Positions 37,688 through 57,049 are shown, numbered from the stretch's first letter. The stretch: 64,000 bases of DNA from Candidatus Nealsonbacteria bacterium (GCA_026396115.1 JAPLXL010000005.1:137316-201315), one strand, 5' to 3'. Numbers and translations: made by a program. Notes: generated by a model from the sequence alone, not told the origin.

Positions 37688-37702
37688 AATAATAAAAAAC
37701 TT

Positions 37703-39049
37703 ATGCAGAGAAAGACAACTTTGAATAAATATTTTTTTCTCATCCTAATTTTATTTTTATTTTTTTTGTTAAGTGATTTTGCTTTGGCTAAGAAATGTAC
37801 AACCGATGCTGAGTGCGCGCCGGCAAGATGTGTAGATGAAAAATGTGTTAAGACCTTAGAGATTGTTTATCCTAAGGTTCCCGGAGCTACTGCCACTCCA
37901 GAAACCGTTGCCACCGGCTTGCCAGAATACGTCAATTATATTTTCCGATTTGCGGTTATTGTCATTGGCTTAATAATTTTTGGTGTTTTGGTTTACAACG
38001 GCGTTATTTATTTGACCTCAGTCGGGGATCCATCCAAAATGACTGATGCCAGAACCGGAATTTTTGCCGGTTTTTTAGGGGCAATTATTTTGCTTTCAGC
38101 TTATCTCATCTTTAATACTATTAATCCTCAATTAACTATTTTAAAAATGGAAGAAGTCCCTGCTCTCAAACCCATCGTCTTCCCAGGCATTTATATTTGC
38201 GCCAATAAGGTAGATGATATAGAAGGAGTTCTCAATAAATACCTTCAAGGTGATCGAGTTGAAGCTGTCGAAGAGCTCCGAAAAATAATAGAGGATAAAA
38301 TCTGCCTAAAAGCTAATTTCTCCGGCAATTTCGAGAATTTTGAAGTGAGTGCGAATAACAATACTTTTTTTGTCATTCCAGCTGAAGAGTCAAAATATGA
38401 TTCCGATAAAGCAACAACCACAACTAAATATGTGTCTAAATATGGATTAATTTTACACGAAAAAGATAATTTTAGCGGCAGATGTTTTCTCGCATTCCAA
38501 GAAAATGATAAAATATATGCATCATCATCTAAAGAAGAATTTAAGCCAATTTCCGGAAATTTTGATAAGTTACCCTCAGATTTCAAAGCCAGATCATTTA
38601 CTCTTTTTAAAGAACCTGACCCTGAACCGGCTCCTGCTGCCCAAGGAGTAATCTTATATAATTGTCTTAGTTATGACCAAACGGGGTGCGCAAAAGATGT
38701 TACGCTTAAAGAAGCTCCTTTCAATACAGGAGGCGCTGATATGAGACAGGTTACGAAAAGTGGACTGGGAGAATTAGCCCAAAATACCCGTTCAGTTAAA
38801 ATTGATCCCAAAGGTTCTTTCTTGGCTCTCCTTTATGAGAAGGACGATTTTGAAGGTAAATGTGAAGTAATTTCTAGCAATGTTGTTGACCTTACCCAAC
38901 ATCCTATTGGTCGTTGTCCGACTGACCTTGCGGGAGCTGGCTGCAATGTTATAGGAATTTGGATTTATAGTCTAGGAGGTCTGCTATCCAACCCTTATTG
39001 TCAGCCCTGTATTCAATCAATGACTGTAATTAAGGGACTAAGACTCTAA
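37703..39049 (+). CDS. secreted protein with a second copy of the VirB2/TrbC-like two-helix domain and a Cys-knot-like N-terminus
   Basis: Signal peptide; CTTDAECAPARCVDEKC; TVATGLPEYVNYIFRFAVIVIGLIIFGVLVYNGVIYLTSVGDPSKMTDARTGIFAGFLGAIILLSAYLIFNTINPQL is paralogous to the domain in the 32223 gene. Confidence 0.45.
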   Translation: MQRKTTLNKYFFLILILFLFFLLSDFALAKKCTTDAECAPARCVDEKCVKTLEIVYPKVPGATATPETVATGLPEYVNYIFRFAVIVIGLIIFGVLVYNGVIYLTSVGDPSKMTDARTGIFAGFLGAIILLSAYLIFNTINPQLTILKMEEVPALKPIVFPGIYICANKVDDIEGVLNKYLQGDRVEAVEELRKIIEDKICLKANFSGNFENFEVSANNNTFFVIPAEESKYDSDKATTTTKYVSKYGLILHEKDNFSGRCFLAFQENDKIYASSSKEEFKPISGNFDKLPSDFKARSFTLFKEPDPEPAPAAQGVILYNCLSYDQTGCAKDVTLKEAPFNTGGADMRQVTKSGLGELAQNTRSVKIDPKGSFLALLYEKDDFEGKCEVISSNVVDLTQHPIGRCPTDLAGAGCNVIGIWIYSLGGLLSNPYCQPCIQSMTVIKGLRL

Positions 39050-39054
39050 TTAAG

Positions 39055-40548
39055 ATGAAAAAAAATTATTTTTATCTCCTAATTTTAACTCTTCTTTTTC
39101 TTCTTTTTCCTTTGCCAACTTTTGCCCAATGGACATTCATCCGGGATGCTCTTTTGTTTCTTCCCACCTTGGCAATTGCTGCTATTTTGGCTTTTGTTAT
39201 TTTTCTTAGCGGAGGAATTACTTGGTTAGTGGGTGCAATTCTTAATTGGGTAATCAGCCCCGGGTTTGTCAGTTTAAGTTATACCAGAATTGATGGCCCA
39301 AATCCCAATCCAATAATTGGAATGGGATTAAACATTACCCAAAGTTTTGTTAATTTGGCTCTGGTGGTTATTTTGGTTGTTATTGCTCTTTCCATTGCCC
39401 TGCGATTGGGTGAATACGGCAGTAAAAAAATCTTTGCCAAGCTGCTTATTATTGCCTTATTGGTTAACTTTGCTCCGGTTCTTGTTGGCTTAATAGTTGA
39501 TGCTTCAAATATTGTCATGAACTATTTTTTAAATGCAATTACAGAAGGAGCAATGGATATTGGTTCTCAGGTTTCAGATTTTAGCGCTGGCATTGCGAAA
39601 GTTATTGGGGGGGCTGGCGGCAACATTATGAGCAGATTGGGATTAGTGATGCAGGGGATTACCCAGATTATAGTCAACCTGTCCATGGCTTTTGCTTTTT
39701 TACTTTTTGCCGCTCTTTTCTTGATGAGATATGTAGTCATCTGGACTTTAACTATTTTATCTCCCCTGGCTTTTGTTGCTTGGATTTTACCCGGCACTAA
39801 AAAGCTTTGGAATATGTGGTGGAATCAGCTTATTCAATGGTCAATTATTGGTATTCCCATTGCCTTTTTTCTCTATTTAGGTCTCAATAGTTTTTCCTAT
39901 CTTAGGTCTGCTTTCGTTAGCAATCTTGAAATGCCGGGCATGGAACCGGCAACTGTTGGTTTTTTAAACGAAATTTTCCCTTTTTTCGTTATCATTGTCT
40001 TCCTTATTTTAGGCTTTGCCATCGGTCTTCAAACCGGAGCAATGGGAACTAAGGCAGTGATTAAAGGATTTCAAGCCGCTAATAAAACAGCTCAAAAAAC
40101 AACATTAAAAGCCATCGGACGCGGAACAGCGGCAGTCGGAATGGCAGCCGGAGGAGCGGCAGCCGTAAGTGCTGTTGGAAAGATGCAGAGAACATATACA
40201 GCTGGAAGAGCAAAAGGCCTTTCACCGATAAAAGCGACGGGTGAAGCGGTAAAAAGACAGTGGCAAAGAAGAACGTGGCCGGCAATAAAACAGACGGGGC
40301 AAGTGATAAAAACAACATTAACAACAAAAGCAGGAGCAAAAGCAGGAGCAAAAGCAGGATGGTCTAAGGGGGTGGCTGCCGGAAAAGGAACTTGGTCTGC
40401 TGTTAAGGATATTGCCAAACAAACAGCAATCGCAGGAGCAGTCGCAGGGGGAATAATGAAGAAAAAATCACCAACTCATTGTCCATCTTGTGGAGGCGCT
40501 GCTCCGGCCGGAGCAAGTTTCTGCCCTCATTGCGGAGCTAATTTTTAA
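39055..40548 (+). CDS. polytopic membrane protein (VirB6/TrbL-like topology) with a Lys/Ala-rich tandem-repeat tail and a C-terminal CxxC...CxxC zinc ribbon
   Basis: Signal-like N-terminus plus at least six hydrophobic helices; tail KAGAKAGAKAG is encoded by a 3x9-bp tandem repeat at 40327-40358; ends HCPSCGG...FCPHCGANF. Confidence 0.4.
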   Translation: MKKNYFYLLILTLLFLLFPLPTFAQWTFIRDALLFLPTLAIAAILAFVIFLSGGITWLVGAILNWVISPGFVSLSYTRIDGPNPNPIIGMGLNITQSFVNLALVVILVVIALSIALRLGEYGSKKIFAKLLIIALLVNFAPVLVGLIVDASNIVMNYFLNAITEGAMDIGSQVSDFSAGIAKVIGGAGGNIMSRLGLVMQGITQIIVNLSMAFAFLLFAALFLMRYVVIWTLTILSPLAFVAWILPGTKKLWNMWWNQLIQWSIIGIPIAFFLYLGLNSFSYLRSAFVSNLEMPGMEPATVGFLNEIFPFFVIIVFLILGFAIGLQTGAMGTKAVIKGFQAANKTAQKTTLKAIGRGTAAVGMAAGGAAAVSAVGKMQRTYTAGRAKGLSPIKATGEAVKRQWQRRTWPAIKQTGQVIKTTLTTKAGAKAGAKAGWSKGVAAGKGTWSAVKDIAKQTAIAGAVAGGIMKKKSPTHCPSCGGAAPAGASFCPHCGANF

Positions 40549-40566
40549 AACTTCGTAAAATTATTT

Positions 40567-41043
40567 ATGTCAGAAGAATTTGAAATTCAAAAACTAAAAA
40601 GCGAATACCCGGAATTTTTTGAGCAGGTTTCTCCTGAATTTTTGGAGTTTATTTTTTCTGAAGAAACCTCTTCTAAAATTGCCGAGATTTGTTTGGAAAA
40701 CGGAATAGAAGACGAAGAAAAAATTGAAAAAATTGCTTACCGGGTTACCTTGGCTCTGTTAGAGCAAGTACCAAAAGAAAACTTAACTGAAGTCCTTGAA
40801 AAAGGAGTTGAAATAGATTTTGAAACCGCCGAAAAAATCTCTATTGAGATTAAACAGCTTATCTTTTCACAAATTCCAGAAACTCAACCAAAAGAAATTC
40901 AAAAAGAAGAGGATCAAATAGAAGAAGATGAGATAGAAGAAGATGAACTAACTCAACCGGAAAAACCGTCTCCTCCGGTGACGGAAAAAGAAGAACCTGA
41001 AAAGCCCTCAAAAAAAGATGTTTACCGAGAGCCTGTTGGATAA
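40567..41043 (+). CDS. acidic (Glu/Asp-rich) hypothetical protein
   Basis: ORF only; C-terminal EEDQIEEDEIEEDELTQPEKPSPP. Confidence 0.3.
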   Translation: MSEEFEIQKLKSEYPEFFEQVSPEFLEFIFSEETSSKIAEICLENGIEDEEKIEKIAYRVTLALLEQVPKENLTEVLEKGVEIDFETAEKISIEIKQLIFSQIPETQPKEIQKEEDQIEEDEIEEDELTQPEKPSPPVTEKEEPEKPSKKDVYREPVG

Positions 41044-41088
41044 ATAAAAAGGGAATGACTACTGTCATTCCCTCTAAAAAGCAAACAA

Positions 41089-42258
41089 CTACTTCTTTTT
41101 CTTTTTATGCCTCTTTCTCTGTTTTTTTAGTGTTTCTAGGGCTTCTCGAGCACTTTTCATTACTCTTTCTGTCTCTGGGCTTAATGGTTTTTCTGCATTT
41201 ACTTCTTCTTCTTTTGGTTCTTGTTCTGATTCACCACCCGGTATCCTCTTCCAAGCTCCGATTAGATTAAGAAAAGCTCCTTCCATTCCAGTTGCCCCAG
41301 GCGTTTCAATCCTAAGGTAAGATCTTTGTTCCATTGAAAGTTTTGTCATTGTATTGTCTACAATGGGTTGATGTTTTTGGTAGAAAACTTGGGGATCCGC
41401 CCTGAACTCTGCCTGGACCTCTTCCTCTTTTCTTCCTTCGGCTCTCGTCACCGCTAAAATCACAGTTCCCATTATTTCCTCAGCTCTACCAGCTGCCCTC
41501 ATCTCCTGTTCTTTTTTAGCAGCTCCTGCTTTCTGATATTCCGGTGATAATCCAATGCTTTTAATGTCTATTCCTTGTTTCGCAATTTGCAGCCCCCATT
41601 TAGGAAGAGTTTCTTGAATTAATTTTTCGTCTTTTAACCCAACGATTCCTTCCCCTCCTTCCCAGAGAGTTTCACTTTTACCTTTCAAAGCGATAAATTC
41701 ATCTACTGTCAACATGCTAACTCTCGCCCTCATAAGAGCGTCTATTCTGGCAAGGACATCTTCCAGAGGAGTCGGAGGAGCAATAAAGAGAAACAGAAAA
41801 GGATTCAATATCCGCATCGTTATCAATATCTCAATATCCAGCGGAATTCGTTCTGGAGGTAGGGTCTCTACCTTAAAAATTTTTGTCCAGTAAACCGCTG
41901 GTTTCAACATTACATGTCTAAGCTCTTCATCGTGAAACTGTGGTTTCTCAATTTTCTCTCCTACTTCCTCTACCCGGCGTAGATCGGTCCATCTTAAAGG
42001 ATATTTATAGATTTTATAAAAGGGCCATAAATAAACATACAAGCCACCAAAAATTTGACCATAAAGCTTACTTTCTTTTTTTTTCTTCTTCTCTTTTTTC
42101 CTCCAAATATTCCATTCAACATCCATCCAATGATTTTCCCATTGGAAGATAATTTTATAGAAAGCGCCCGCCTTCATCAGCGCCTGGGCTGTCCCTTCTT
42201 TTACAATAGTGAACCTGACAAACAAAAAAAATACTCCTAATAATATTAACCATTCCAT
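41089..42258 (-). CDS. SPFH/band-7-like membrane protein with a poly-Lys segment and basic C-terminus
   Basis: N-terminal TM then IVKEG...; later VETLPPERIPLDIEILITMRILNP and WGLQIAKQGIDIKSIGLSPEYQKAGAAKKEQE resemble SPFH core motifs. The family assignment is tentative. Confidence 0.35.
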   Translation of the reverse strand: MEWLILLGVFFLFVRFTIVKEGTAQALMKAGAFYKIIFQWENHWMDVEWNIWRKKEKKKKKESKLYGQIFGGLYVYLWPFYKIYKYPLRWTDLRRVEEVGEKIEKPQFHDEELRHVMLKPAVYWTKIFKVETLPPERIPLDIEILITMRILNPFLFLFIAPPTPLEDVLARIDALMRARVSMLTVDEFIALKGKSETLWEGGEGIVGLKDEKLIQETLPKWGLQIAKQGIDIKSIGLSPEYQKAGAAKKEQEMRAAGRAEEIMGTVILAVTRAEGRKEEEVQAEFRADPQVFYQKHQPIVDNTMTKLSMEQRSYLRIETPGATGMEGAFLNLIGAWKRIPGGESEQEPKEEEVNAEKPLSPETERVMKSAREALETLKKQRKRHKKKKK

Positions 42259-42438
42259 TTTCCTTTCACCTCCAATATAGTTTTTAAAGGGCTTTCCTCA
42301 AAGAAAACCCTCCTTTTCCTTGATAATTTACTTATATCACAATATAATATTTTTGTCAAATTTCTTGACATTGTGTTTTTCTTTGATTCTATTTGTGCTA
42401 AAATTAAAAAAGTAGTAAAATAATAAGTAGATAAAATT

Positions 42439-42747
42439 ATGCCCGTTGAAGCTGTTATCCCTAAGAAAAAAGGCGGTTGGTTTCAGAAAATTCCTACCGA
42501 AATTTTTTTATCGCCCGGCGGAATGATTTTGATTTTTTTTGCCCTTATAATTGAAATTATTGATTGGATTCCGCTTCCTTTTGTTGACCAAATATGGGAA
42601 CTACCATTGGAAATAGGTTTCATTGTTTTATTAGTTATAATAGTTAAAGATATCTCCTGGAAATCTTTAGTTATTCCTTTTATTATTGAACGCATTCCCA
42701 TAATAAGCGATATTGTTCCCACTTGGCTTATAAAAATGTTTGCCTGA
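42439..42747 (+). CDS. small two-TM membrane protein
   Basis: ORF with two hydrophobic helices. Confidence 0.3.
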   Translation: MPVEAVIPKKKGGWFQKIPTEIFLSPGGMILIFFALIIEIIDWIPLPFVDQIWELPLEIGFIVLLVIIVKDISWKSLVIPFIIERIPIISDIVPTWLIKMFA

Positions 42748-42768: not shown

Positions 42769-42935
42769 TAAAAATAAATTACAATTTGACATAGTAGCAA
42801 TTAAGATGTGCCGCGTCTCCGAAAATCTGAAAAGGGAGATAGGCTGATCCGCCTCAGCTTTGAAGCTTCGGCGGGCAAGAAGGTCGGCGCTACTAGCAAA
42901 GATTAATTATCAGTAATTGTCTAAATCCAGAAAGA
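42769..42935 (+). promoter_or_regulatory. candidate promoter (TTGACA-16-TACAAT) and GC-rich structured leader upstream of khpA-trmD
   Basis: TTGACA at 42769-42774, TACAAT at 42791-42796; the leader contains the hairpin ccgcctcagctttgaagcttcggcgg, which is conspicuous in an AT-rich genome. Confidence 0.3.
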
Positions 42936-42938
42936 ACT

Positions 42939-43250
42939 ATGACTGAAACAAAAGGAAACGATAAAGAATTCCTTGAGTATTTAGTGAAGGCTTTAGTTGA
43001 TAACCCAGAAGATGTCAAAATCGACCGCAAGGTTGATGAAATGGGAGTTTTGCTTTCTTTGAAAGTGAACTCCGAAGATATGGGTCAGATTATCGGCAAA
43101 GCCGGTTCTACTGCCAGAGCAATTAGAGGTTTGGTTCGAATTGTCGGTCTTAAAAATCACGCCAGAGTGAATTTGAAGATCGAAGAACCGGAAGGTGGCA
43201 GAGAAACTCGAGAAATAAAAACAGAATCTATTGAAGATTTAAAGTTGTAA
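42939..43250 (+). CDS. khpA: KH-domain RNA-binding protein KhpA (UPF0109), copy 1, with a C-terminal extension
   Basis: LVKALVDNPEDVKIDRKVDEMGVLLSLKVNSEDMGQIIGKAGSTARAIRGLVRIVG; classic position between rpsP and trmD. Confidence 0.7.
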   Translation: MTETKGNDKEFLEYLVKALVDNPEDVKIDRKVDEMGVLLSLKVNSEDMGQIIGKAGSTARAIRGLVRIVGLKNHARVNLKIEEPEGGRETREIKTESIEDLKL

Positions 43251-43305
43251 ACTAAAAGTTTACAATTGCTCGAAGACCGTGCTATTATTGATAGTGCGGT
43301 TTTCG

Positions 43306-43379
43306 TTTACCGAGCTTTCACGGATGAAAGCGAAGGTGAAAATGAAGGCAAACTTCGCAGAAGGAAAACTTCATCGCCT
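43306..43379. repeat. mini-element copy immediately upstream of the trmD start codon
   Basis: tttaccgagctttcacggatgaaagcgaaggtgaaaatgaaggcaaacttcgcagaaggaaaacttcatcgcct. Confidence 0.6.
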
Positions 43380-44039
43380 ATGATAACATTTGACATTATT
43401 ACCATTTTTCCCAAGATTTTTGATTCTTATTTGAGAGAATCCTTTATAAAAAAAGCAATAGTCAAAGGCTTGCTTAAAATTAACATTCATAATTTAAGAG
43501 ATTGGGCAAAAGACCGCCACAAAACCGTTGATGATAGGCCATTTGGCGGCGGGTTGGGAATGGTCTTAAAGATTGAACCAATATATAAAGCCATAAAGGC
43601 TTTGAAAAAATCCAAAATTATTTTATTTACGCCGAGGGGAAAGAAATTTAATCAAAAAATGGCTTATCAGTTTTCCAAATTAAAGCAGATAATTATTATT
43701 TGCGGCCGTTATGAAGGAGTTGATGAAAGAGTGGCAAAAAAAATAGCCGATGTTGAGCTATCAATAGGCGATTATGATTTAATGGGCGGAGAGTTGCCGG
43801 CTATGGTGGTTATGGAGACAATAGCCAGATTAATCTCCGGAGTTCTTGGAAAGCCCGAATTATTAAAAGAAAGAATTACCAAAGAAAAGGGCTTTATTGA
43901 GTATCCTCAATATACCAGACCGGAGGTTTTTTCGCCCAAAAAAGGAGTAAAATGGCACGTGCCGAAAGTTTTGGTTTCCGGAAATCATAAAAAAATTGAA
44001 GAATGGCGGGAAAAACACCAAAAAATCATTGGGGAATAA
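43380..44039 (+). CDS. trmD: tRNA (guanine37-N1)-methyltransferase TrmD
   Basis: MITFDIITIFPKIFDSY start and SPOUT knot motifs. The longer frame starting at 43266 is open only because a mini-element copy lies immediately upstream. Confidence 0.85.
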   Translation: MITFDIITIFPKIFDSYLRESFIKKAIVKGLLKINIHNLRDWAKDRHKTVDDRPFGGGLGMVLKIEPIYKAIKALKKSKIILFTPRGKKFNQKMAYQFSKLKQIIIICGRYEGVDERVAKKIADVELSIGDYDLMGGELPAMVVMETIARLISGVLGKPELLKERITKEKGFIEYPQYTRPEVFSPKKGVKWHVPKVLVSGNHKKIEEWREKHQKIIGE

Positions 44040-44120: not shown

Positions 44121-44205
44121 CGGGTGCGTGGTGGAGTAGCTAACACACCACTCTGTAAAAGTGGCGCCTTCGGGCTTCGCAGGTGCAATTCCTGCCGCAC
44201 CCACC
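44121..44205 (+). tRNA. tRNA-Tyr (anticodon GTA), type II with long variable arm, CCA encoded
   Basis: Acceptor GGGTGCG/CGCACCC, anticodon stem-loop CCACT-CTGTAAA-AGTGG, 14-nt variable arm, T-arm GCAGG-TGCAATT-CCTGC, 3' ACCA. Confidence 0.75.
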
Positions 44206-44282
44206 ATAAAAATTTAAAATTAAAAATTAAAAAAGAAGAAAAGAAAAAGGAGGCAAAAGGGAAAAATATCGCCGAGGGACTT

Positions 44283-44311
44283 GACAAGGAAAAATGAATA
44301 TGCTATGATAT
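44283..44311 (+). promoter_or_regulatory. sigma70-like promoter (TTGACA-17-TATGAT) inside the tRNA-Tyr-adjacent island
   Basis: cttgacaaggaaaaatgaatatgctatgat. Confidence 0.35.
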
Positions 44312-44616
44312 AAATATTAATGAGAAATAGATAGTTCTTACAAATTAAATAAGATAAAAACAATTTCGAGGAGAGAGTCGCAATTGTTTTAAGTCAATTT
44401 TGTAAAAACCATTGGTTATTAAATTTAGTGACCAGAAATATTGTAAAAGGCGACTCTTCCAGAGCCGTCTTTTACTTTTTAAGCACCTTCAAATTAAATA
44501 TGGAGAAACCTCTTTTCTGCCACTGCATTTGGGAATATTGATATGTTCTCAGTTGCGGTGGCAGAAAAAAAGAAAGAAAAAAAATCCGCCCTCGGGCGGA
44601 AAAAGGAGGAAAAGAA

Positions 44617-45822
44617 ATGAAAAGGAAGATTGATATGCGATTTGGTGGAGGATACAATACAATTTTGTATTCTGCCAGGAGAAACTGTTTCTTTGCCTAT
44701 GAGCAGGAAGCAGTGGAAATTCATTCTAAATACGGGGGGAGGCAGTATTACTCCTCTCGAACTGGGTTGAGTGGTGCCGGTTTTCTCGAAGTTGATCCGA
44801 TCAACAATGATTTGATCCAGTTCGGGTATTACCGGACAGATGCGATGAGCGAACAGCGAATAGAGACAGTTCATACTGTCAATGGTTGTCCAGTATTTGG
44901 TTATGCCCCGATTATCTCGCATGGGGGAATTGACCAAAACGCACCGTTTGTACTCGCGGACGGTAGGAAAGTGGCGTTTGTCCATGCCTGCGATGTTCGT
45001 GATACCATTCTTAAATGGGAAGGGATTAAGGGCAAGGAAATCGAGTTGAACTATTATGATCACTACGGTCATAAAGAGAAACTCACTTTCCAGTTTTACA
45101 ATCCTGACCATTTCAGAGAAGTGAGGGCAAGCCGTTTCGTAGACTTACGAGGTCCTCGCCTAGAGGCAAAGGCAGTCCAACTCGAAGAGTTGGAAAGCGT
45201 CTTTGCTCGTCAGCTTTCCATTTCAAAAGAGATGGAAAGCGAGCGCTGGTTTCACATCAATGCCGATGGAATATTCGACATGATGTGGGAAGAGGACCCT
45301 CGTCAAATCGTCGGCGAAATCGTACCAGGATGGTACGGCGAAGGCAATGGTCTCTACTGGCGACGTGGTCGCAACGGCGTGAAAGTTTTCATGGAGATTA
45401 AAAGGTCTTCCTTGAATGGCGGGAAATATGTCGTTAATGGCAAAACTTCCGAGTTTATCGACTACGAGCAGAACTTTTCCATCTTGGAATGGTTCAGCAA
45501 GGACATTGATGCGTGGAAGAAACACTTCGTCGCGCAAGTGACGAAGAAAACACGCATGGACTACGTATATGCCTGCCAGTGTGTGGGCATAAATACTTAT
45601 GAGTTGATGAAACAACATCCGGATGTCCGAGTCTGTCTCCAAGATTCACTTGATGTTGGCAACTGTCGCCCGGCATCAGAGGAATTCGTCGAGCAATATA
45701 AAATCAAGCTCGATGAGGACGGATACACTGCCATAAAGACATTGCTAGAAAATCCGAACATCGACGAGATGTTGCGGAATTTCAACTTTCAGAAGACAAT
45801 CCACTACAAACTAGTGGATTAA
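44617..45822 (+). CDS. orphan hypothetical protein, compositionally foreign (clearly GC-richer than its surroundings), preceded by a GC hairpin and an AAGGAGG RBS
   Basis: 401-aa ORF with no motif I recognise; GC and codon usage differ from flanking housekeeping genes. Confidence 0.45.
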   Translation: MKRKIDMRFGGGYNTILYSARRNCFFAYEQEAVEIHSKYGGRQYYSSRTGLSGAGFLEVDPINNDLIQFGYYRTDAMSEQRIETVHTVNGCPVFGYAPIISHGGIDQNAPFVLADGRKVAFVHACDVRDTILKWEGIKGKEIELNYYDHYGHKEKLTFQFYNPDHFREVRASRFVDLRGPRLEAKAVQLEELESVFARQLSISKEMESERWFHINADGIFDMMWEEDPRQIVGEIVPGWYGEGNGLYWRRGRNGVKVFMEIKRSSLNGGKYVVNGKTSEFIDYEQNFSILEWFSKDIDAWKKHFVAQVTKKTRMDYVYACQCVGINTYELMKQHPDVRVCLQDSLDVGNCRPASEEFVEQYKIKLDEDGYTAIKTLLENPNIDEMLRNFNFQKTIHYKLVD

Positions 45823-46020
45823 TAATTAATCAAGGCGCTAACTGTCTTATTAGAGTTTTCGTAAGCCACCGAATGAAAATTTTAATGAAAAGTTAGTTGG
45901 TGAGATCTGTTATTAACAGATGGCCTTGACTCACCGTAAAACAAAAAGGATGCACTTATATGAAGGAGGTAAGAGTTTACTTATCAAAAGTTTACTCATT
46001 ATAATACTCTTCCTCCTTCA

Positions 46021-46062
46021 ATCTCCCAAGTTCAGAATTAAGATTCTGGATTTAGGAGATTG
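46021..46062 (+). repeat. 42-bp direct repeat, copy 1 (atcTcccaagttcagaattaagattctggatttaggagattg) with internal palindrome CAGAAT-TAAG-ATTCTG
   Basis: 41/42 identity with 46522-46563. Confidence 0.8.
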
Positions 46063-46108
46063 GAAAAAAGAAAGAAAAGAAATAAAAAGAAGAAAGGAGG
46101 TGTTTTAA

Positions 46109-46474
46109 GTGGAAAAGTTCGGTTTAAAAGCCGAAAAGTGGATAATATCTATTTTGAAAAGCAACGGGTTCTCAGTGATAAAATCGAGTGATATAGAGGA
46201 TCTAATTTTCAAAGTAGATTTCTGGATTCAGCACGATAATTACTGGATTCCAGTTCAGTTCTCGGTGGATAAGGAGGCGATTATTAGTTGGAAGGGGACT
46301 AATTCACTTCGACTGGGAATTGTTCCTATGTGGATAGATGGGAACAAGCTCAGGAGGGCTTTTGAAGATGAGGATGGGATAGAGTTAATTAAGGAGTTCT
46401 GGAATCGTGTAGAACAGATTATAGAAAATTGTTCTATAAAGCGATTTCAAACTCCAAACTGGAGTTGCGCTTAA
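46109..46474 (+). CDS. hypothetical protein carried on a cassette flanked by 42-bp direct repeats (GTG start, AAGGAGG RBS)
   Basis: ORF followed by the terminator-like hairpin ggggaactcaaattgcacacaatgagttcccc, then the second DR. Confidence 0.35.
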   Translation: MEKFGLKAEKWIISILKSNGFSVIKSSDIEDLIFKVDFWIQHDNYWIPVQFSVDKEAIISWKGTNSLRLGIVPMWIDGNKLRRAFEDEDGIELIKEFWNRVEQIIENCSIKRFQTPNWSCA

Positions 46475-46521
46475 CCAGATCACTAAAGGGGAACTCAAAT
46501 TGCACACAATGAGTTCCCCTA

Positions 46522-46563
46522 ATCCCCCAAGTTCAGAATTAAGATTCTGGATTTAGGAGATTG
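46522..46563 (+). repeat. 42-bp direct repeat, copy 2
   Basis: 41/42 identity with 46021-46062. Confidence 0.8.
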
Positions 46564-46938
46564 TTCCGAGTTTCAGAAAGATAAAATTTAACATAGAGGA
46601 AATAAAATGTTAGGATTTTAAATGGGTTTTTCTTCAGAGAGCTGTCAGTAAGTTCTAGCCCCTCCCCCCGGAGATGGCTACCAAGCTAGATCGGACATTA
46701 GTTCTGAAGACTGGCGAATTTCGCCAAAATCTCTCTCATTGTCTTCTAAAAATTGATGTTTGTATCATCCTAGCGCTTGCTGATAGCTTCTTGGAGAAAA
46801 ATATTGACATATTTAAAAAAAAGAGTAAAATAAAAGACAGCTTGGCAGAGCCAGGCAAAATAGTCGATTTTCTGGATTTCAGAAAGAGAGAATCGCAGAA
46901 TTAAAGGTCGGAAGAATTTTTAGTTTTATTAGTTTTAC

Positions 46939-47280
46939 TTGTTAAAATTAACACTTATGGCAAAAGCAACTATTGACAAAGAATTTCTTGAATACATTAT
47001 TAAAGGCCTAGTTGACTACCCCGATGATGTAAAAGTTGAAAGAAAAGTTGACGAGATGGGTGTTTTGCTCAGTTTGAAAGTCAACTCCGAAGATATGGGT
47101 CAGATTATCGGAAAGGAAGGTTCAACTGCTCGGGCAATAAGAAACCTTATTAGAATTGTAGGTCTCAAAAATCATGCCCGGGTTAACTTAAAGATTGAAG
47201 AACCAGAAGGCAGAGTAGCTGAAGTAAGAAAAGCTCCTGCCCGAAAGAAAGAAAGCGATTTGGATAGTTTAAATCTTTAA
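46939..47280 (+). CDS. khpA: KhpA paralog (copy 2) with a different C-terminal extension
   Basis: VDEMGVLLSLKVNSEDMGQIIGK is identical to copy 1, but the DNA carries many synonymous differences (an old duplicate or xenolog). Confidence 0.65.
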   Translation: MLKLTLMAKATIDKEFLEYIIKGLVDYPDDVKVERKVDEMGVLLSLKVNSEDMGQIIGKEGSTARAIRNLIRIVGLKNHARVNLKIEEPEGRVAEVRKAPARKKESDLDSLNL

Positions 47281-47354
47281 GTCTAAGGTTTACATCAAGA
47301 GAAAGCGGTGCTACTATGAAAAGGTGGTACCGTTTTTTCGTATCTCTATTATTA

Positions 47355-47427
47355 GCCTGGGTAGCTCAGTTGGCAGAGCACGTCTTTGGTAAAGACGAGG
47401 TCGCCGGTTCAATCCCGGCCTCAGGCT
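47355..47427 (+). tRNA. tRNA-Thr (anticodon GGT), CCA not encoded
   Basis: Acceptor GCCTGGG/CTCAGGC, anticodon stem-loop CGTCT-TTGGTAA-AGACG, T-arm GCCGG-TTCAATC-CCGGC. Confidence 0.75.
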
Positions 47428-47485
47428 CCCGAGCGATAGTAAAGAGGAGAGAAGAGAATTTATCCTCTACGAACTCATAAAAAAT

Positions 47486-47653
47486 ATGGCTACAAAAAAG
47501 AAACCATTTATTAAACTTCAGTGCAAAGAGTGCAAAAGAATTAATTATTTTACCCGAAAATCTAAGCAAAAAAAAGCTGAGAGAAAGTTGGAATTTAAAA
47601 AGTTTTGTAAATGGTGCAGAAAAAATACCATCCATAAGGAATCGAAAAGATAG
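47486..47653 (+). CDS. rpmG: 50S ribosomal protein L33 (missed by the ORF track because it is under 60 aa)
   Basis: MATKKKPFIKLQCKECKRINYFTRKSKQKKAERKLEFKKFCKWCRKNTIHKESKR: CxxC...CxxC zinc ribbon typical of L33. Confidence 0.8.
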   Translation: MATKKKPFIKLQCKECKRINYFTRKSKQKKAERKLEFKKFCKWCRKNTIHKESKR

Positions 47654-47662
47654 ATAAATAAA

Positions 47663-47734
47663 GGGGGCGTGGTGAAATGGCTATCATAGGAATCTCCAAA
47701 ATTTCTGTTTCAGGTTCGAATCCTGGCGCCCCCG
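47663..47734 (+). tRNA. tRNA-Trp (anticodon CCA), CCA not encoded
   Basis: Acceptor GGGGGCG/CGCCCCC, anticodon stem-loop GGAAT-CTCCAAA-ATTTC, T-arm TCAGG-TTCGAAT-CCTGG. Confidence 0.7.
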
Positions 47735-47750
47735 CTTCTTTATAAACAAT

Positions 47751-49298
47751 ATGAACAAAAAGATAATTTTAATAATCATTATCATTATTTTGGTAACCTT
47801 TGGCGTTTATCGAGTTTTTTTAAAAGAAAAAAAACCTGAGTTTAATTTGATTGAGGTGGTTCGGGGAGACATCGTCCAAGAAATTTTTGAAAGCGGCCAA
47901 GTTGGAAGGGGAGAAAAAATAAACCTTATCTTTGAAAACGCCGGAAAAATTGAAAAAATTTATGCCGGGGTGGGCGATGAGGTTAAGGCTGGCCAGGAAT
48001 TGGCAAAGCTGGACACCAGCAATCTTTATATTCAGCTTCAGGATGTTCAAACCGGCCTTGAATTAGCTCAACTAAACTTAAATAAGTTATTGGCCGGTGC
48101 CGGTCCGGAAGAAATTAAAATTACTGAAACCCAACTGGAAAACGCCGAAATTACCTTAGGGATTGCCAAAGAAAATTTAAAAAATAGCTATGAAACAGCC
48201 ATAACTGTTTCAGATGGTTCTTATCCTCAAATTTATAACGCTCTAGATTTTGTAAAAGAATTTGTCGGAGAATACATTAATATCTATGACGAAGACGGTA
48301 GAACAATAATGCGTGCCAGAGATGAAATAGAAAGAGCAGAAGCGGAAGCAAAACTTTATTTAGGGATTGCAAAAAATAATTTAAACAATGATAAAAATAT
48401 TGAAACTGCTCTTTTAATAATGAAAAACTCTCTTGAGACAGCTTTTGACAGCTTAGAAACAATCCGTGAAATTGCCGATAAATCAGCTATTTATCGAGAA
48501 AGAGTTTCGGCAGCTGACAAGGCTTCTTTGGATACCCTGAAAACAAATATTAATGGAGCCCTGACTAATGTTATTGGCGTCCAACAAACAATCTCTTCAA
48601 TGAAATCAAACGTTGAGACGGCGCAAACAAAACTTCAAGAGGCTGAGAGCCGTTTAGATTTAATCAAAGCCGAAGTCCGCCAAGTGGATATTGATTTGTC
48701 TGAAGCCCAGATAAGACAAGCTCAAACCCGGGTACAATTTTACGAAAATCAAATTCAGCAATCAAAACTTATCAGTCCGGCTGCCGGCAAAATCATTGAA
48801 ATTAAAAAGAGAATCGGGGAATTGGTTCAGCCGACCTCGCAGGACGTTGTCATCGTTGTTTTGCCCATCGCCCCTTATGAAATAAAAGTAGACATTTACG
48901 AGGAAGACGTGATTGAAATAAGCGTCGGCAATTCGGTTGAAATTACTTTGGTTGCCTTTCCGGATAAAAAAATTGAAGGGAGGGTTATCTCAATAAGTCC
49001 GGCAGAAAAAATAGTTGACGGCGTGGTTTATTATGAAACAACTATTGGTTTTGAAGAAATGCTCAAGGCGATAAAGCCCGGCATGACCGCAGACGTTATT
49101 ATTCAAGCTGATTTAAAAGAAAATGTTCTGATTATTTCCAGAGATGCAATTCAAGAAAAAGATGACAAAACAATAGTTGAAGTTTTTAAAAATGGGCAGA
49201 TTCAGGAAAGAGATATTGAAATTGGATTGAGGGGGAGCAACGATATGGTAGAAGTGCTTTCCGGTCTTGAAGAGGGAGAAAAAGTAATTCAAAGATAG
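47751..49298 (+). CDS. HlyD-family periplasmic adaptor / membrane-fusion protein (MacA-like)
   Basis: N-terminal TM, long coiled-coil hairpin region, lipoyl/beta-barrel motifs (ISPAAGKIIEIKKRIGELV; GMTADVIIQ). Confidence 0.7.
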   Translation: MNKKIILIIIIIILVTFGVYRVFLKEKKPEFNLIEVVRGDIVQEIFESGQVGRGEKINLIFENAGKIEKIYAGVGDEVKAGQELAKLDTSNLYIQLQDVQTGLELAQLNLNKLLAGAGPEEIKITETQLENAEITLGIAKENLKNSYETAITVSDGSYPQIYNALDFVKEFVGEYINIYDEDGRTIMRARDEIERAEAEAKLYLGIAKNNLNNDKNIETALLIMKNSLETAFDSLETIREIADKSAIYRERVSAADKASLDTLKTNINGALTNVIGVQQTISSMKSNVETAQTKLQEAESRLDLIKAEVRQVDIDLSEAQIRQAQTRVQFYENQIQQSKLISPAAGKIIEIKKRIGELVQPTSQDVVIVVLPIAPYEIKVDIYEEDVIEISVGNSVEITLVAFPDKKIEGRVISISPAEKIVDGVVYYETTIGFEEMLKAIKPGMTADVIIQADLKENVLIISRDAIQEKDDKTIVEVFKNGQIQERDIEIGLRGSNDMVEVLSGLEEGEKVIQR

Positions 49299-54036: not shown

Positions 54037-54080
54037 AAATTCATTGAGCTCTTGACAGGAATTTAAATTGATATAATATT
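54027..54080 (+). promoter_or_regulatory. 7-5-7 palindrome AATGAAT-TGAAA-ATTCATT abutting the -35 of the rplJ promoter (TTGACA ... TAATAT)
   Basis: Palindrome at 54027-54045 overlaps the stop of the upstream gene; TTGACA at 54053-54058; TAATAT at 54075-54080 (16-nt spacer). Confidence 0.45.
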
Positions 54081-54087
54081 AAAACAT

Positions 54088-54195
54088 ATCCGCAGACAAC
54101 AGGTAGCTTATTGAGCGTAAAACCTGTCTAGGAAAAATACACGGGTCCGACTCGTGCAAATTGGTTGTCTGCGGGAAACGCAGATTTTTTATTAC
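54088..54195 (+). ncRNA. putative ribosomal protein L10 (rplJ) autoregulatory leader
   Basis: About 110-nt 5' UTR with a long-range stem ccgcagacaacc...ggttgtctgcgg and an internal hairpin, directly upstream of rplJ. Confidence 0.4.
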
Positions 54196-54199
54196 CACC

Positions 54200-56560: not shown

Positions 56561-57049
56561 TTATTTTTCTTTTGGAATAAGATTCTCAAAAGGAAATTTC
56601 ACCCAGACCTTCCCTATTTTCTTTACAATGAAATCCGGTTTAAATTCAGAACCGGATTTCTCAAAAATCACAGCTGTTGAAAGTTTTTCTATTTTTTCTC
56701 CATATTTCTTTTTTAAGAAACGAACTGATTCCTTAAGTGTTCTTCCGGAATCTACTAAATCATCTGTTAAAAGACACCGTTTGCCGATGCTTTTAGTCGT
56801 CATTACTAAATTCCTTGAAAAGATTATAGTTTCTTCCTTAGAACGCCTATTGTAACTCTGAGCAGCCATAACAGCTAAGGGAATATCTCCTAATCCGAAA
56901 CTGAAAAATAAACCAGGTACAGTTCCTCCTCTTGATATTCCAATTACCATGTCAAATTCTTCTCCAGAACGACGAACTTTTTCTAACAGTTTTCGCAATA
57001 GTTCTATGTATTTTTTCCAGGAAATCTTTATCTCCTTTTTTGTTTTCAA
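56561..57049 (-). CDS. type I phosphoribosyltransferase (purine PRTase-like)
   Basis: PRPP motif CLLTDDLVDSGRTL; about 160 aa. Confidence 0.55.
   Translation of the reverse strand: MKTKKEIKISWKKYIELLRKLLEKVRRSGEEFDMVIGISRGGTVPGLFFSFGLGDIPLAVMAAQSYNRRSKEETIIFSRNLVMTTKSIGKRCLLTDDLVDSGRTLKESVRFLKKKYGEKIEKLSTAVIFEKSGSEFKPDFIVKKIGKVWVKFPFENLIPKEK

What the first reader, a model, noticed from the sequence alone, without database searches (positions are those of the whole stretch)
44206..46938. tRNA-Tyr-adjacent mosaic of foreign DNA with an orphan GC-rich gene, canonical SD sites and a diverged khpA duplicate
Immediately 3' of tRNA-Tyr (a classic integration target) lies about 2.7 kb unlike the rest of the window. 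It contains its own TTGACA-17-TATGAT promoter. A GC hairpin plus AAGGAGG RBS precede a 401-aa ORF (44617-45822) that is clearly GC-richer than the native genes and has no recognisable family. Then come palindrome-rich spacers, a cassette bounded by 42-bp direct repeats, and a second copy of khpA (46939-47280) whose core peptide is identical to copy 1 (42939) but whose DNA carries many synonymous changes.

Native genes here mostly lack Shine-Dalgarno sequences, whereas the island ORFs (and tdk) use AAGGAGG. Composition, translation signals and position all argue for horizontal acquisition. The 401-aa protein (motifs include GCPVFGYAPIISHGGIDQNAPFVLADGRKVAFVHACDVRD) is a candidate novel cargo gene.
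Basis: partly seen in the sequence, partly recalled or inferred. Interest (0 to 1): 0.7.

Follow-up and report, generated by a model that had tools for sequence, protein, structure and literature searches.

The report
Foreign hairpin-punctuated gene-cassette array between two tRNAs
The 3.1 kb wedged between tRNA-Tyr and tRNA-Thr of this tiny candidate-phyla-radiation bacterium is foreign DNA: a copy of a gene-cassette array punctuated by conserved hairpin repeats, carried in with a second khpA gene from a related lineage, and it shows an integron-like way of shuffling genes of unknown function without any recognisable recombinase.

Summary
The interpretation (horizontal acquisition next to tRNA-Tyr) is supported, with changed boundaries and a different picture of what was acquired.

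**Insert.** It spans 44207-47353 (3,147 nt) and fills the tRNA-Tyr|tRNA-Thr spacer. That spacer has a median of 15 nt in 57 related Paceibacteria and is 3 nt in the closest relative.

**Origin.** There is no integrase and no att repeat, so this is not a classic tRNA island. It is a copy of a cassette array that in a sister clade lies between rpsP and khpA. It arrived together with the donor's khpA promoter, khpA (khpA2) and the khpA-trmD spacer. khpA1 groups with the syntenic relatives; khpA2 groups with the array-bearing clade.

**Architecture.**
- A left module with a promoter and a structured leader.
- Cassettes with a conserved two-hairpin 5' UTR and a strong SD. ORF401 is preceded by this UTR module; ORF121 follows DR1 directly with only its SD.
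- A nearly invariant 43-nt imperfect hairpin repeat after each cassette.
- A right-end structured RNA of about 190 nt, supported by covariation.

Cassette content differs between 85-94% identical genomes. The one difference mapped precisely (L004 versus L106) breaks at the hairpins.

**Cassette proteins.** ORF401 is the GC3 outlier of the window. It belongs to an unannotated family of at least 388 clusters with no matching fold in the PDB or BFVD. ORF121 belongs to a family of 17 clusters with only a faint Hjc-like resemblance. The function of both is unknown.

The parts
42939..43250 (+). khpA1, the native KhpA gene
   Evidence: It matches PF13083 at E = 1e-20. It groups with L059 and L090 in the KhpA NJ tree. 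Nucleotide identity to L090 is 86% including the flanks, and the ORF102-khpA-trmD synteny is shared with L090.
43381..44039 (+). trmD (native). The mechanical ORF call starts at TTG 43266; ATG 43381 fits the family start.
   Evidence: It matches PF01746 at E = 1e-50. Nucleotide identity to L090 is 75%.
44122..44206 (+). tRNA-Tyr(GTA), the left boundary of the insert
   Evidence: Found by ARAGORN and Rfam.
44207..47353 (+). The whole inserted segment (3,147 nt) that fills the tRNA-Tyr|tRNA-Thr spacer
   Evidence: The same spacer is 3 nt in L090 and has a median of 15 nt in 57 relatives. The segment is collinear with L004 5230-8307.
44233..44280 (+). A/G-rich stretch, possibly the 3' end of the donor's rpsP plus the spacer just upstream of the array promoter (tentative)
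   Evidence: It aligns with the end of rpsP and the following bases in L004 and L116. The sequence is low-complexity, so the homology is weak.
44281..44309 (+). Inward promoter of the array: TTGACA-17-TATGAT with TG
   Evidence: Found. The same promoter is conserved in L004 and L116 and after tRNA-Lys in L104, where the left module is 90% identical.
44310..44487 (+). Left-end leader with a terminator-like hairpin (44443-44475) followed by a T run
   Evidence: Conserved in L004, L116, L106, L114, L008 and L104. Folding z-score is -8.0 for 44315-44616.
44488..44616 (+). Cassette 5' UTR module ('H5'): a 25-bp hairpin at 44513-44568, a GC hairpin at 44585-44600 and the SD AAGGAGG at 44603-44609
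   Evidence: The module recurs directly after the hairpin repeats in L101, L102 and L110, and also occurs in L104, L108, L112 and L008, at 76-91% identity. The alignment has 29 pairs, 7 of them with compensatory changes.
44617..45822 (+). ORF401 cassette: member of a large unannotated protein family, richer in GC than its host
45896..46019 (+). Pre-repeat intercassette module (palindrome plus a 13-bp stem enclosing TTTACT-18-TATAAT). 'ORF62' (45920-46108) is not a gene.
   Evidence: The module recurs before hairpin repeats in L004, L102, L103, L104, L112 and L117. Folding z-score is -4.8.
46020..46062 (+). DR1: a 19-bp imperfect hairpin repeat (AATCTCCCAAGTTCAGAAT-TAAG-ATTCTGGATTTAGGAGATT)
   Evidence: Found. 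Among 29 distinct copies from 19 sources (the window and 18 loci) the arms are nearly invariant, always with one C.A mismatch and two G.T wobbles, and loops of 3-30 nt.
46109..46474 (+). ORF121 cassette (GTG start, SD at 46094-46100): a small family restricted to these arrays
   Evidence: 17 clusters in 5.8 billion proteins. Homologues precede a hairpin repeat in nine further loci, including L004, L008, L106 and L116. The best PDB sequence match is the Hjc resolvase 1gef at E = 0.06, which is not significant.
46521..46563 (+). DR2: second copy of the hairpin repeat (1 mismatch)
46612..46814 (+). Right-end module: a conserved structured RNA of about 190 nt. 'ORF76' (46674-46904) overlies it and is not a gene.
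   Evidence: The alignment of 9 sequences gives 60 pairs, with 96.8% of cells paired against at most 51% when the partners are slid. Nine pairs have compensatory changes, and no shuffle of 500 reaches the observed percentage paired, number of cells changed on both sides or covariation score. The covariance model scores 212 bits on the + strand and 30 bits on the - strand, with one copy per array.
46804..46831 (+). Outward promoter TTGACA-16-TAAAAT. The homology of the right-end module ends at its -35 box.
   Evidence: Found. Arrays at other loci diverge right after TTGACA. The same khpA promoter follows rpsP directly in the array-less relative L015.
46832..46956 (+). Donor-type khpA 5' UTR
   Evidence: 78% identical to L004 and also present in array-less L015. 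It is absent upstream of khpA1.
46957..47280 (+). khpA2: an intact xenologous KhpA gene carried in with the array
   Evidence: It matches PF13083 at E = 3e-21. It is 81% identical in amino acids to L004 KhpA, with shared N- and C-terminal tails, against 75% to khpA1. It groups with L004, L116, L106, L105 and L015.
47281..47353 (+). Donor khpA-trmD spacer with a terminator-like hairpin. It ends where trmD would start.
   Evidence: It aligns with L004 8265-8331.
47354..47430 (+). tRNA-Thr(GGT), the right boundary of the insert
   Evidence: Found. The junction khpA2-tRNA-Thr-L33-tRNA-Trp-MFP is also present in the independent assembly L095.

Best explanation
The 3,147 bp between tRNA-Tyr and tRNA-Thr (44207-47353) is a horizontally acquired piece of another Paceibacteria chromosome. 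It consists of a hairpin-punctuated gene-cassette array plus the DNA that flanked it in the donor: the khpA promoter and 5' UTR, khpA itself (now khpA2) and the khpA-trmD spacer.

In a sister clade (L004, L105, L106, L114, L116) such arrays sit between rpsP and khpA. Related arrays lie next to tRNA-Lys or tRNA-Val elsewhere.

The array has these parts:
- A left module with a sigma-70-type promoter and a structured leader ending in a terminator-like hairpin.
- Co-oriented cassettes, each with a strong Shine-Dalgarno site. ORF401 and several cassettes in other loci also carry a conserved two-hairpin 5' UTR.
- A nearly invariant 43-nt imperfect hairpin after each cassette.
- A right-end structured RNA of about 190 nt that ends at the -35 box of a promoter reading into the next gene.

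ORF401 and ORF121 are two cassettes.

**Shown:** absence from relatives, collinearity with the donor-type locus, the xenologous position of khpA2, and conservation and covariation of the RNA modules. Cassette content also differs between near-identical genomes; the one difference mapped in detail (L004 versus L106) is bounded by the hairpins.

**Inferred:**
- The cassettes are transcribed from the left promoter and translated through their SD sites.
- The hairpins act as folded single strands that both punctuate the transcript and serve as the crossover points for cassette gain, loss and reshuffling.
- The segment entered the Tyr|Thr spacer by illegitimate or homology-assisted recombination of a larger donor fragment, followed by loss of the redundant trmD-tRNA-Tyr.

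The biochemical roles of ORF401 and ORF121 are not known. My best guess is that they are accessory genes of the conflict type (defence or anti-defence, linked to mobile elements).
For: **Empty site**
- 80 related khpA loci show khpA-trmD-tRNA-Tyr-tRNA-Thr-L33-tRNA-Trp.
- The Tyr|Thr gap has a median of 15 nt in 57 loci.
- In L090 the junction reads CCA-AAT-GCCTGGG.

**Host backbone resembles L090/L059 on both sides**
- ORF102-khpA1-trmD on the left and tRNA-Thr to MFP on the right.

**Collinearity with L004**
- The insert is collinear with L004 5230-8307, with 78% identity over 46621-47323.

**khpA2**
- It groups with the L004 clade, and khpA1 groups with L059/L090.

**Array-less sister**
- L015 has rpsP followed directly by the khpA promoter.

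**Arrays elsewhere**
- 17 metagenome loci carry the hairpin repeat.
- The left module is 90% identical after tRNA-Lys in L104, and the right-end module occurs at loci without khpA.

**Cassette turnover**
- L015, L004, L106, L114/L105 and L116 have flanks 85-94% identical but different cassettes. In the L004-versus-L106 comparison the segment unique to L004 (ORF429) is bounded by the two hairpin repeats.
- ORF401 is 90% identical to its L008 homologue, whereas ORF121 is 48% identical to its L008 homologue.

**Hairpin repeat**
- 29 distinct copies have near-invariant arms, a fixed mismatch and wobbles, and loops of 3-30 nt.

**RNA modules**
- Right-end module. H5 module. Folding z-scores from -4.8 to -8.0.

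**Composition and SD**
-.

**Independent assembly**
- L095 (94% identity) carries the same arrangement from 44303 to 48853.
Against: - No recombinase or other mobility gene was found in the window or the array loci, so how cassettes or the whole segment move is not shown.
- Deletions between 43-nt repeats could arise by ordinary homologous recombination.
- The actual donor is unsampled: khpA2 is only 78% identical in nucleotides to the L004 clade.
- The KhpA tree rests on about 100 residues with an almost invariant core.
- The left junction (tRNA-Tyr|insert) has no independent assembly support. L095 starts about 100 nt inside the insert, and khpA1 is not on record elsewhere.
- Outside ORF401 the insert has host-like GC.
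- Transcription, RNA folding and any function of the cassettes are untested.
Confidence: 0.75

Rival explanations
1. In-genome segmental duplication. An ancestor had rpsP-array-khpA-trmD-tRNA-Tyr-tRNA-Thr. The array plus khpA was duplicated into the Tyr|Thr spacer, the two khpA copies then diverged, and the original array was lost.
For: The insert is collinear with a homologous operon of relatives. Arrays also occur in the rpsP|khpA gap of L113 and L115, whose khpA resembles khpA1. The GC of khpA2 is host-like.
Against: khpA2 is closer to L004-clade KhpA (81%) than to khpA1 (75%) and shares its tails and indels. The two copies fall in different clades. The khpA2 5' UTR and 3' spacer match only the L004 clade, whereas the khpA1 flanks match L090 and L059. 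The window's own rpsP|khpA1 gap shows no trace of the array.
Confidence: 0.12
2. A classic integrative genomic island that targets the 3' end of tRNA-Tyr through a tyrosine integrase, now degraded.
For: It lies immediately 3' of a tRNA. ORF401 is compositionally deviant. The Tyr|Thr gap is a recurrent insertion site in relatives. In L014 an ORF401 homologue sits beside repeated fragments that look like a tRNA 3' end.
Against: No integrase or transposase was found in the insert, in the 64-kb window or in the array loci. No repeat of a tRNA end occurs at the far side. The insert carries donor chromosomal genes and spacers at its right end. The same array sits between rpsP and khpA in the sister clade.
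Confidence: 0.06
3. The hairpin repeats and structured spacers are purely RNA-level signals (terminators, processing or stability elements of an ordinary variable operon). Cassette differences between strains arise from ordinary homologous recombination and deletion, and no dedicated cassette mobility exists.
For: The G.U wobbles make the hairpins specific to the + strand, which is the transcript strand. The covariance model for the right-end module scores 212 bits on + and 30 bits on -. Compensatory changes occur in the H5 and right-end modules. No recombinase was found.
Against: The arms are conserved in sequence across genomes whose neighbouring non-coding DNA is only about 70% identical, including a fixed mismatch. 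The same modules and cassettes occur at unrelated loci: rpsP|khpA, tRNA-Lys, tRNA-Val and Tyr|Thr. There is no U tract right after the hairpin.
Confidence: 0.3
4. Metagenome assembly chimera that joins two related populations.
For: The window is probably from a MAG. L095 breaks about 100 nt inside the left end of the insert. The left junction has no independent support.
Against: Two junctions without shared sequence would be needed. The right junction (khpA2-tRNA-Thr-L33-tRNA-Trp-MFP) is reproduced in an independent sample at 94% identity. khpA1 and khpA2 are only 76% identical over 236 nt, which is too low to mislead an assembler.
Confidence: 0.04

Closest known systems
Integron cassette arrays, especially CALINs (clusters of attC sites lacking an integrase)
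   Same: Co-oriented cassettes, mostly of one ORF of unknown function, each followed by an imperfect palindromic repeat. The arms of the repeat are conserved and its central part varies in length. An upstream promoter serves the array. Cassette content and order differ between close strains.
   Different: No IntI integrase is present. The repeat has no RYYYAAC/GTTRRRY core sites. Each cassette carries its own structured 5' UTR and strong SD. The array has defined, conserved left and right structured modules. It occurs in Patescibacteria, where I do not know of integrons (from memory; the literature search found nothing relevant).
tRNA-adjacent genomic islands
   Same: It lies directly 3' of a tRNA gene, is absent from relatives, and contains one gene of deviant composition.
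   Different: It has no integrase and no att duplication. It fills the spacer between two tRNAs and carries a housekeeping-gene xenologue plus donor intergenic DNA.
Neisseria intergenic mosaic and minimal mobile elements bounded by dRS3 or Correia repeats (from my own knowledge, not tested here)
   Same: Variable cassettes sit between conserved genes and are delimited by short conserved inverted-repeat elements that carry promoters and fold in RNA. Exchange is thought to use recombination on conserved flanks.
   Different: The repeat families are unrelated and the phylum is different. Copy number here is low (2 copies in 64 kb). The end modules are conserved.
IS200/IS605 elements (TnpA of about 130-150 aa plus TnpB of about 400 aa, with subterminal hairpins)
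   Same: A gene of about 120 aa and a gene of about 400 aa occur alone or together in either order, next to imperfect hairpins that appear to act as folded single strands.
KhpA (PF13083) paralogue pairs
   Same: khpA2 is a full-length, intact KhpA with its own promoter.
   Different: The second copy is a xenologue brought in with a mobile array, not a local duplicate.

Membership tests
Integron / CALIN | IntI-type tyrosine recombinase next to the array (required for an integron, absent by definition in a CALIN) | tested here: not met
   The insert ORFs have no Pfam hit. tblastn with a Xer-like integrase and an rve transposase finds nothing in the window or the 17 repeat-bearing loci. This was a limited test with a single query of each type.
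Integron / CALIN | attC sites: imperfect palindromes with R''/R' core sites (RYYYAAC ... GTTRRRY), extrahelical bases and a variable central part | tested here: not met
   The repeat is an imperfect palindrome with a variable loop of 3-30 nt and a fixed mismatch. Its arms (AATCTCCCAAGTTCAGAAT / ATTCTGGATTTAGGAGATT) lack the attC core consensus. No attC covariance model was run.
Integron / CALIN | Co-oriented cassettes, each ending in the repeat, with content that varies between strains | tested here: met
tRNA-targeting integrative island | Integrase gene, plus a direct repeat of the tRNA 3' end at the distal boundary | tested here: not met
tRNA-targeting integrative island | Adjacent to a tRNA and absent from the same site in relatives | tested here: met
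IS200/IS605 | Y1 HUH transposase (TnpA) and/or RuvC-type TnpB | tested here: not met
   Neither protein hits PF01797, PF01385 or PF07282. The ORF401 model has no RuvC-like match.
KhpA (PF13083) - khpA2 | KH_KhpA-B domain above the Pfam gathering score | tested here: met
   75.7 bits against a cut-off of 32.1.
PD-(D/E)xK / Hjc-like nuclease - ORF121 | E ... D ... (E/Q)xK catalytic motif on an alpha-beta-beta-beta core | tested here: inconclusive
   The profile against PDB sequences gives 1gef (Hjc) as best hit at E = 0.06, aligning E9, D37 and Q50. The catalytic Lys position is an invariant Ser, and the Asp is absent in 2 of 9 members. No member has a Pfam hit. The single-sequence AF2 model has pLDDT 45.
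REP/BIME-type repeats | Many dispersed intergenic copies per genome | tested here: not met
   Only 2 copies occur in 64 kb, both inside the array. Other loci hold 1-3 copies each.
Any Rfam family (spacers, repeat, right-end module) | Match at or near the gathering score | tested here: not met
   Only tRNAs were found. All other hits are chance-level miRNA models.

The most novel reading that the evidence does not exclude
These arrays are a previously undescribed kind of mobile gene-cassette platform in Patescibacteria, a functional analogue of integrons without an integron integrase. On this reading, cassettes are captured, excised and reshuffled at a conserved 43-nt folded hairpin. The array is bounded by dedicated structured-RNA end modules that carry an inward and an outward promoter. 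The array-restricted ORF121 family (faintly Hjc-like) or an unlinked host enzyme would be the structure-specific factor that acts on the hairpin. ORF401 would represent a large cargo family of new fold that is shared with phages.
Probability: 0.22. Interest if true: 0.85.

Novelty: new variant of a known kind. Interest (0 to 1): 0.62.

Why it matters
Patescibacteria have tiny genomes, are mostly uncultured, and are thought to have few classical mobile elements. How they acquire and exchange accessory genes is poorly understood.

This locus gives a concrete, sequence-defined system to study that question:
- A conserved hairpin repeat, two conserved UTR/end RNA modules with covariation support, and a set of shuffled cassettes of unknown function.
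- It recurs at several chromosomal sites, including the inside of a ribosomal-protein operon and tRNA spacers.
- In this window it was transferred between lineages together with a housekeeping gene.

It also yields the following:
- A family of about 400 aa with at least 388 clusters, a confident predicted structure and no known fold.
- A structured RNA motif of about 190 nt that is not in Rfam.
- An example where strong Shine-Dalgarno sites mark accessory genes in a genome that otherwise hardly uses them.

Tried and rejected
**Protein family and fold searches**
- Pfam, NCBIfam, PHROGs and PADLOC on ORF401, ORF121, ORF76 and ORF62 gave nothing significant.
- The only repeated signal was a weak PHROG 'tail assembly chaperone' match in 10 of 22 ORF401 relatives (best E = 0.005).
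- Ten longer ORF401 relatives have no fused Pfam domain.
- The PDB sequence profile for ORF401 gave 0 hits.
- The afdb50 library was unavailable.

**Collection scans**
- Scans of genome contigs and viral contigs with the ORF401 alignment found no relatives.
- The hairpin repeat has no match in viral contigs.

**ORF121 structure**
- The single-sequence model (pLDDT 45) was not used for fold search.

**RNA families and literature**
- Rfam found only tRNAs.
- Three literature searches found nothing relevant.

**Left junction**
- An exact-sequence look-up of khpA1, meant to confirm the left junction, found nothing on record.

**Readings considered and rejected**
- IS200/IS605 (TnpA plus TnpB)
- A classic integron
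- A REP/BIME repeat
- ORF62 and ORF76 as genes
- A local khpA duplication
- An assembly chimera


Full report
**1. Observation**

- tRNA-Tyr is at 44122-44206, tRNA-Thr at 47354-47430 and tRNA-Trp at 47663-47735.
- The 401-aa ORF (44617-45822) is preceded by a GC hairpin (44585-44600) and by AAGGAGG.
- A TTGACA-17-TATGAT promoter-like site with an extended TG lies at 44281-44309.
- ORF401 has GC 0.458 and GC3 0.52. This is the highest GC3 of 62 ORFs in the window (mean 0.331, sd 0.055, z = 3.4).
- Two 43-nt direct repeats (46020-46062 and 46521-46563, one mismatch, none expected by chance) flank a 121-aa ORF.
- Both khpA copies match PF13083. Over 79 core codons, 34 are identical, 35 differ only synonymously and 10 change the residue.
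- Only 8 of 62 ORFs have a GGAGG-type SD. They include ORF401, ORF121 and tdk.

**2. The site in relatives**

The khpA alignment retrieved 80 loci from Paceibacteria, labelled Nealsonbacteria, Staskawiczbacteria, Minisyncoccales and similar.
- Almost all show khpA-trmD-tRNA-Tyr-tRNA-Thr-L33-tRNA-Trp.
- In the 57 loci with adjacent Tyr and Thr genes, the gap has a median of 15 nt.
- Eight loci have inserts of 0.6-1.5 kb whose ORFs look like GIY-YIG, LAGLIDADG or HTH proteins.
- None has an ORF401 or ORF121 homologue or a second khpA within 6 kb.
- L090 is the closest relative by flanking DNA, with 72-86% identity across ORF102-khpA-trmD and tRNA-Thr-L33-tRNA-Trp-MFP. There tRNA-Tyr and tRNA-Thr are 3 nt apart.

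The window therefore carries a 3,147-nt insertion (44207-47353) in a spacer that is a recurrent insertion spot in this group.

**3. Where the insert comes from**

L004, a 15-kb metagenome contig, carries an ORF401 homologue (P0014, 43% identity). Its gene order is:

rpsP - [promoter/leader - ORF125 - repeat - ORF429 - repeat - 200-nt conserved block] - khpA - trmD - tRNA-Tyr - tRNA-Thr - L33 - tRNA-Trp.

The window insert is collinear with L004 5230-8307.
- 44233-44505 matches the end of rpsP and the leader.
- 45896-46065 matches the pre-repeat block.
- 46621-47323 matches the conserved block, the khpA promoter/5' UTR, khpA and the start of the khpA-trmD spacer at 78% identity.
- The spacer homology in fact runs up to where trmD would start.

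L015 is a member of the same clade (81-89% identical flanks). It has rpsP followed after 4 nt by the khpA promoter, so it lacks the whole array. The insert therefore contains the array plus donor chromosome on its right side, and perhaps a few tens of bases on its left.

**4. khpA1 versus khpA2**

- khpA2 is 81% identical to L004 KhpA and shares its N- and C-terminal tails. khpA1 is 76% identical to L004 KhpA and 75% to khpA2.
- In an NJ tree of 87 KhpA sequences, khpA1 joins L059 and L090, and khpA2 joins L004, L116, L106, L105 and L015.
- Together with the flank homologies, this makes khpA1 the native gene and khpA2 a xenologue.
- The tree rests on a short, highly conserved protein, so the flanks carry most of the weight.
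- An in-genome duplication is therefore unlikely but not excluded.

**5. The array as a recurring, modular element**

A pattern for the repeat found 17 metagenome loci and none in viral contigs.
- The repeats bound co-oriented cassettes in the rpsP|khpA gap in L105, L106, L113, L114, L115 and L116.
- They also occur next to tRNA clusters (L101, L109, L111) and after tRNA-Lys in a 212-kb contig (L104).

Other modules recur with them.
- The left promoter/leader is 90% identical in L104.
- A 5' UTR module (44488-44622) follows the repeats directly in L101, L102 and L110 and also occurs in L104, L108, L112 and L008.
- A pre-repeat module corresponds to 45896-46019.
- A right-end module (46583-46804) is found also at loci without khpA. 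Homology stops exactly at a TTGACA -35 box that reads into whatever gene follows.

Cassette content differs between genomes whose flanks are 85-94% identical.
- L015 has none.
- L004 has ORF125 and ORF429.
- L106, L114/L105 and L116 have other sets.
- In the L004-versus-L106 comparison, the segment unique to L004 (ORF429) is bounded by the two hairpin repeats.

Between the window and L008, ORF401 is 90% identical but the neighbouring ORF121 only 48%. L008 also has two extra cassettes.

Cassettes are mostly of unknown function. One is a PRK/uridine-kinase protein, one has a KH domain and one has a weak BRCT match.

**6. The repeat and the RNA modules**

Among 29 distinct repeat copies, the two 19-nt arms are almost invariant. 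They always keep one C.A mismatch and two G.T wobbles, so the hairpin forms only on the strand of the cassettes. The loop varies from 3 to 30 nt, and the long loops are hairpins themselves. A variable loop with invariant arms argues for action as a folded single strand (RNA or ssDNA) recognised by sequence. It argues against a double-stranded site with fixed spacing.

The spacers fold far better than shuffles, with z-scores of -4.8, -7.0 and -8.0.

The right-end module has a consensus structure of 60 pairs.
- 96.8% of cells are paired, against at most 51% when the partners are slid.
- Nine pairs have compensatory changes.
- No shuffle of 500 reaches the observed percentage paired, number of cells changed on both sides or covariation score.
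- A covariance model finds one copy per array, at about 180-230 bits on the + strand and at most 39 bits on the - strand.

The 5' UTR hairpin has 7 pairs with compensatory changes. Rfam has no matching family. ORF62 and ORF76 overlie these modules and are not conserved as ORFs.

**7. The two proteins**

*ORF401*
- It has 22 close relatives and 388 clusters (at 50% identity) at E <= 0.001. None is annotated and none has a Pfam domain, including the longer members.
- The AF2 model is confident (pLDDT 91.9, pTM 0.80).
- Its genes are richer in GC than their surroundings in all 14 loci examined, by 4-16 points.
- Other contexts:
  - A phage-like string of 25 small co-oriented ORFs, two with PHROG matches (L097).
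  - Tandem paralogues among long intergenic repeats (L009).
  - In seven loci, a divergently oriented TrmB-family gene upstream.
- Residues about 178-215 are mosaic between otherwise close and distant relatives.

*ORF121*
- It belongs to a family of 17 clusters that is confined to these arrays.
- Its best PDB sequence match is the Hjc Holliday-junction resolvase at E = 0.06, aligning E9, D37 and Q50. The catalytic Lys position is an invariant Ser, and the Asp is missing in two members.
- I treat this as a lead only.

**8. Mechanism**

Shown:
- Foreign origin of the segment.
- Array architecture.
- Conservation and covariation of the RNA modules.
- Cassette content that differs between near-identical genomes, with the L004-specific ORF429 segment bounded by the hairpins.

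Inferred:
- Transcription starts from the left promoter.
- Translation uses strong SD sites, in a genome where these are rare.
- The hairpins serve both as transcript punctuation and as crossover points.
- The segment entered by recombination of a larger donor fragment, with later loss of the redundant trmD-tRNA-Tyr.

No integrase, transposase or att duplication was found. It remains open whether cassette exchange is site-specific or merely homologous.

**9. Comparison and novelty**

In layout, the closest known thing is an integron cassette array without an integrase (a CALIN). However, the repeat is not an attC by sequence, the cassettes carry their own UTR and SD, and the array has conserved structured ends. 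It also recalls the repeat-bounded minimal mobile elements of Neisseria (from my own knowledge). It is not an IS200/IS605 element, not a REP family and not a classic tRNA island.

I file it as a new variant of a known kind. There is a minority chance (about 0.2) that it is a distinct cassette-mobility system.

**10. Caveats**

- The left junction lacks independent assembly support.
- The donor lineage is unsampled.
- All function is inferred.

Noticed in passing
window 32223-42747: The canonical rpsP-khpA linkage is also interrupted on the native side. 10.8 kb lie between rpsP (31663-32076) and khpA1. They encode an 860-aa protein with a C39-like peptidase domain, a 966-aa protein, a 448-aa protein resembling a T4SS pilin, 497-aa and 158-aa proteins, a Band7 protein (- strand, with SD) and the membrane protein ORF102.
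   Followed up: partly
window 12489-13067, 19775-20173, 22401-22742(-), 41089-42258(-), 56561-57049(-), 60972-62051: These are the only other ORFs with a GGAGG-type SD. They include thymidine kinase (GC 0.48) and a phosphoribosyltransferase. In this genome a strong SD may mark acquired accessory genes.
   Followed up: partly
window 46879-46916 and 42800-42938: The donor-type khpA 5' UTR holds a 38-nt block (GATTTCAGAAAGAGAGAATCGCAGAATTAAAGGTCGGA). The block is identical in L004 and nearly identical in the array-less L015. The native khpA1 leader is GC-rich and hairpin-rich and shares AAGGTCGG. This may be a cis-regulatory leader of khpA.
   Followed up: no
window 43251-43380 and 47281-47353: Both khpA copies are followed by a TTTACA-17/18-TAYTAT site and a terminator-like hairpin before trmD or tRNA-Thr. 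Rfam gives a sub-threshold ylbH-leader hit at 43235-43360 (E = 0.11).
   Followed up: no
L015, L016, L021, L022, L032, L041, L045, L062 (Tyr|Thr gaps): Eight of 57 relatives carry inserts of 0.6-1.5 kb in the same tRNA spacer. Several encode ORFs that look like GIY-YIG, LAGLIDADG or HTH homing-endonuclease-type proteins (by motif inspection, not tested against a profile library). One encodes a 346-aa protein that looks like an aminoacyl-tRNA synthetase.
   Followed up: partly
L021, L030, L045, L049, L056, L062, L070, L091: The L33|tRNA-Trp interval is a second expandable spot. It holds up to 3 kb of extra DNA and two or three copies of the L33 gene in some relatives.
   Followed up: no
L014 3193-3251 and 5592-5650: Two copies of a fragment resembling a tRNA 3' end (GTCGGGTTCRRRTCCCGACCAGTGGCGCA) lie 2.4 kb apart. 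They sit inside 250-nt direct repeats beside an ORF401 homologue of 55% GC, which looks like att-type repeats of an integrative element.
   Followed up: no
L009 2694-5631 and its intergenic repeats: Two tandem ORF401 paralogues sit among three families of hairpin-containing intergenic repeats of 92-228 nt. A phage-type helicase lies downstream. Similar repeat-punctuated layouts may therefore exist in other lineages with unrelated repeats.
   Followed up: partly
window 45150-45260 (ORF401 residues about 178-215): This is a mosaic segment. The window shares it with P0002 (72% overall identity), whereas the 90% identical P0001 carries the version of P0003 (64% overall). This points to recombination within the gene.
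   Followed up: no
L008 108-559 and L104 (reverse strand) 3334-3731: An insertion of about 400-450 nt, carrying a 57-aa ORF that is 95% identical between the two loci, sits between the left leader and the 5' UTR module of the first cassette. The window lacks it.
   Followed up: no
L001, L003, L007, L011, L012, L099, L100: A TrmB-family regulator gene lies divergently 0.5-1.5 kb upstream of ORF401 homologues in seven loci from at least five genomes, usually beside a 590-890-aa protein.
   Followed up: no
L062 4409-4570: The right-end covariance model gives a weak hit (31.8 bits, E about 5e-5) just upstream of khpA in an unrelated Paceibacteria genome.
   Followed up: no
window 54072-54199: Rfam finds an L10 leader here (46.2 bits, just above the gathering score of 44).
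   Followed up: no
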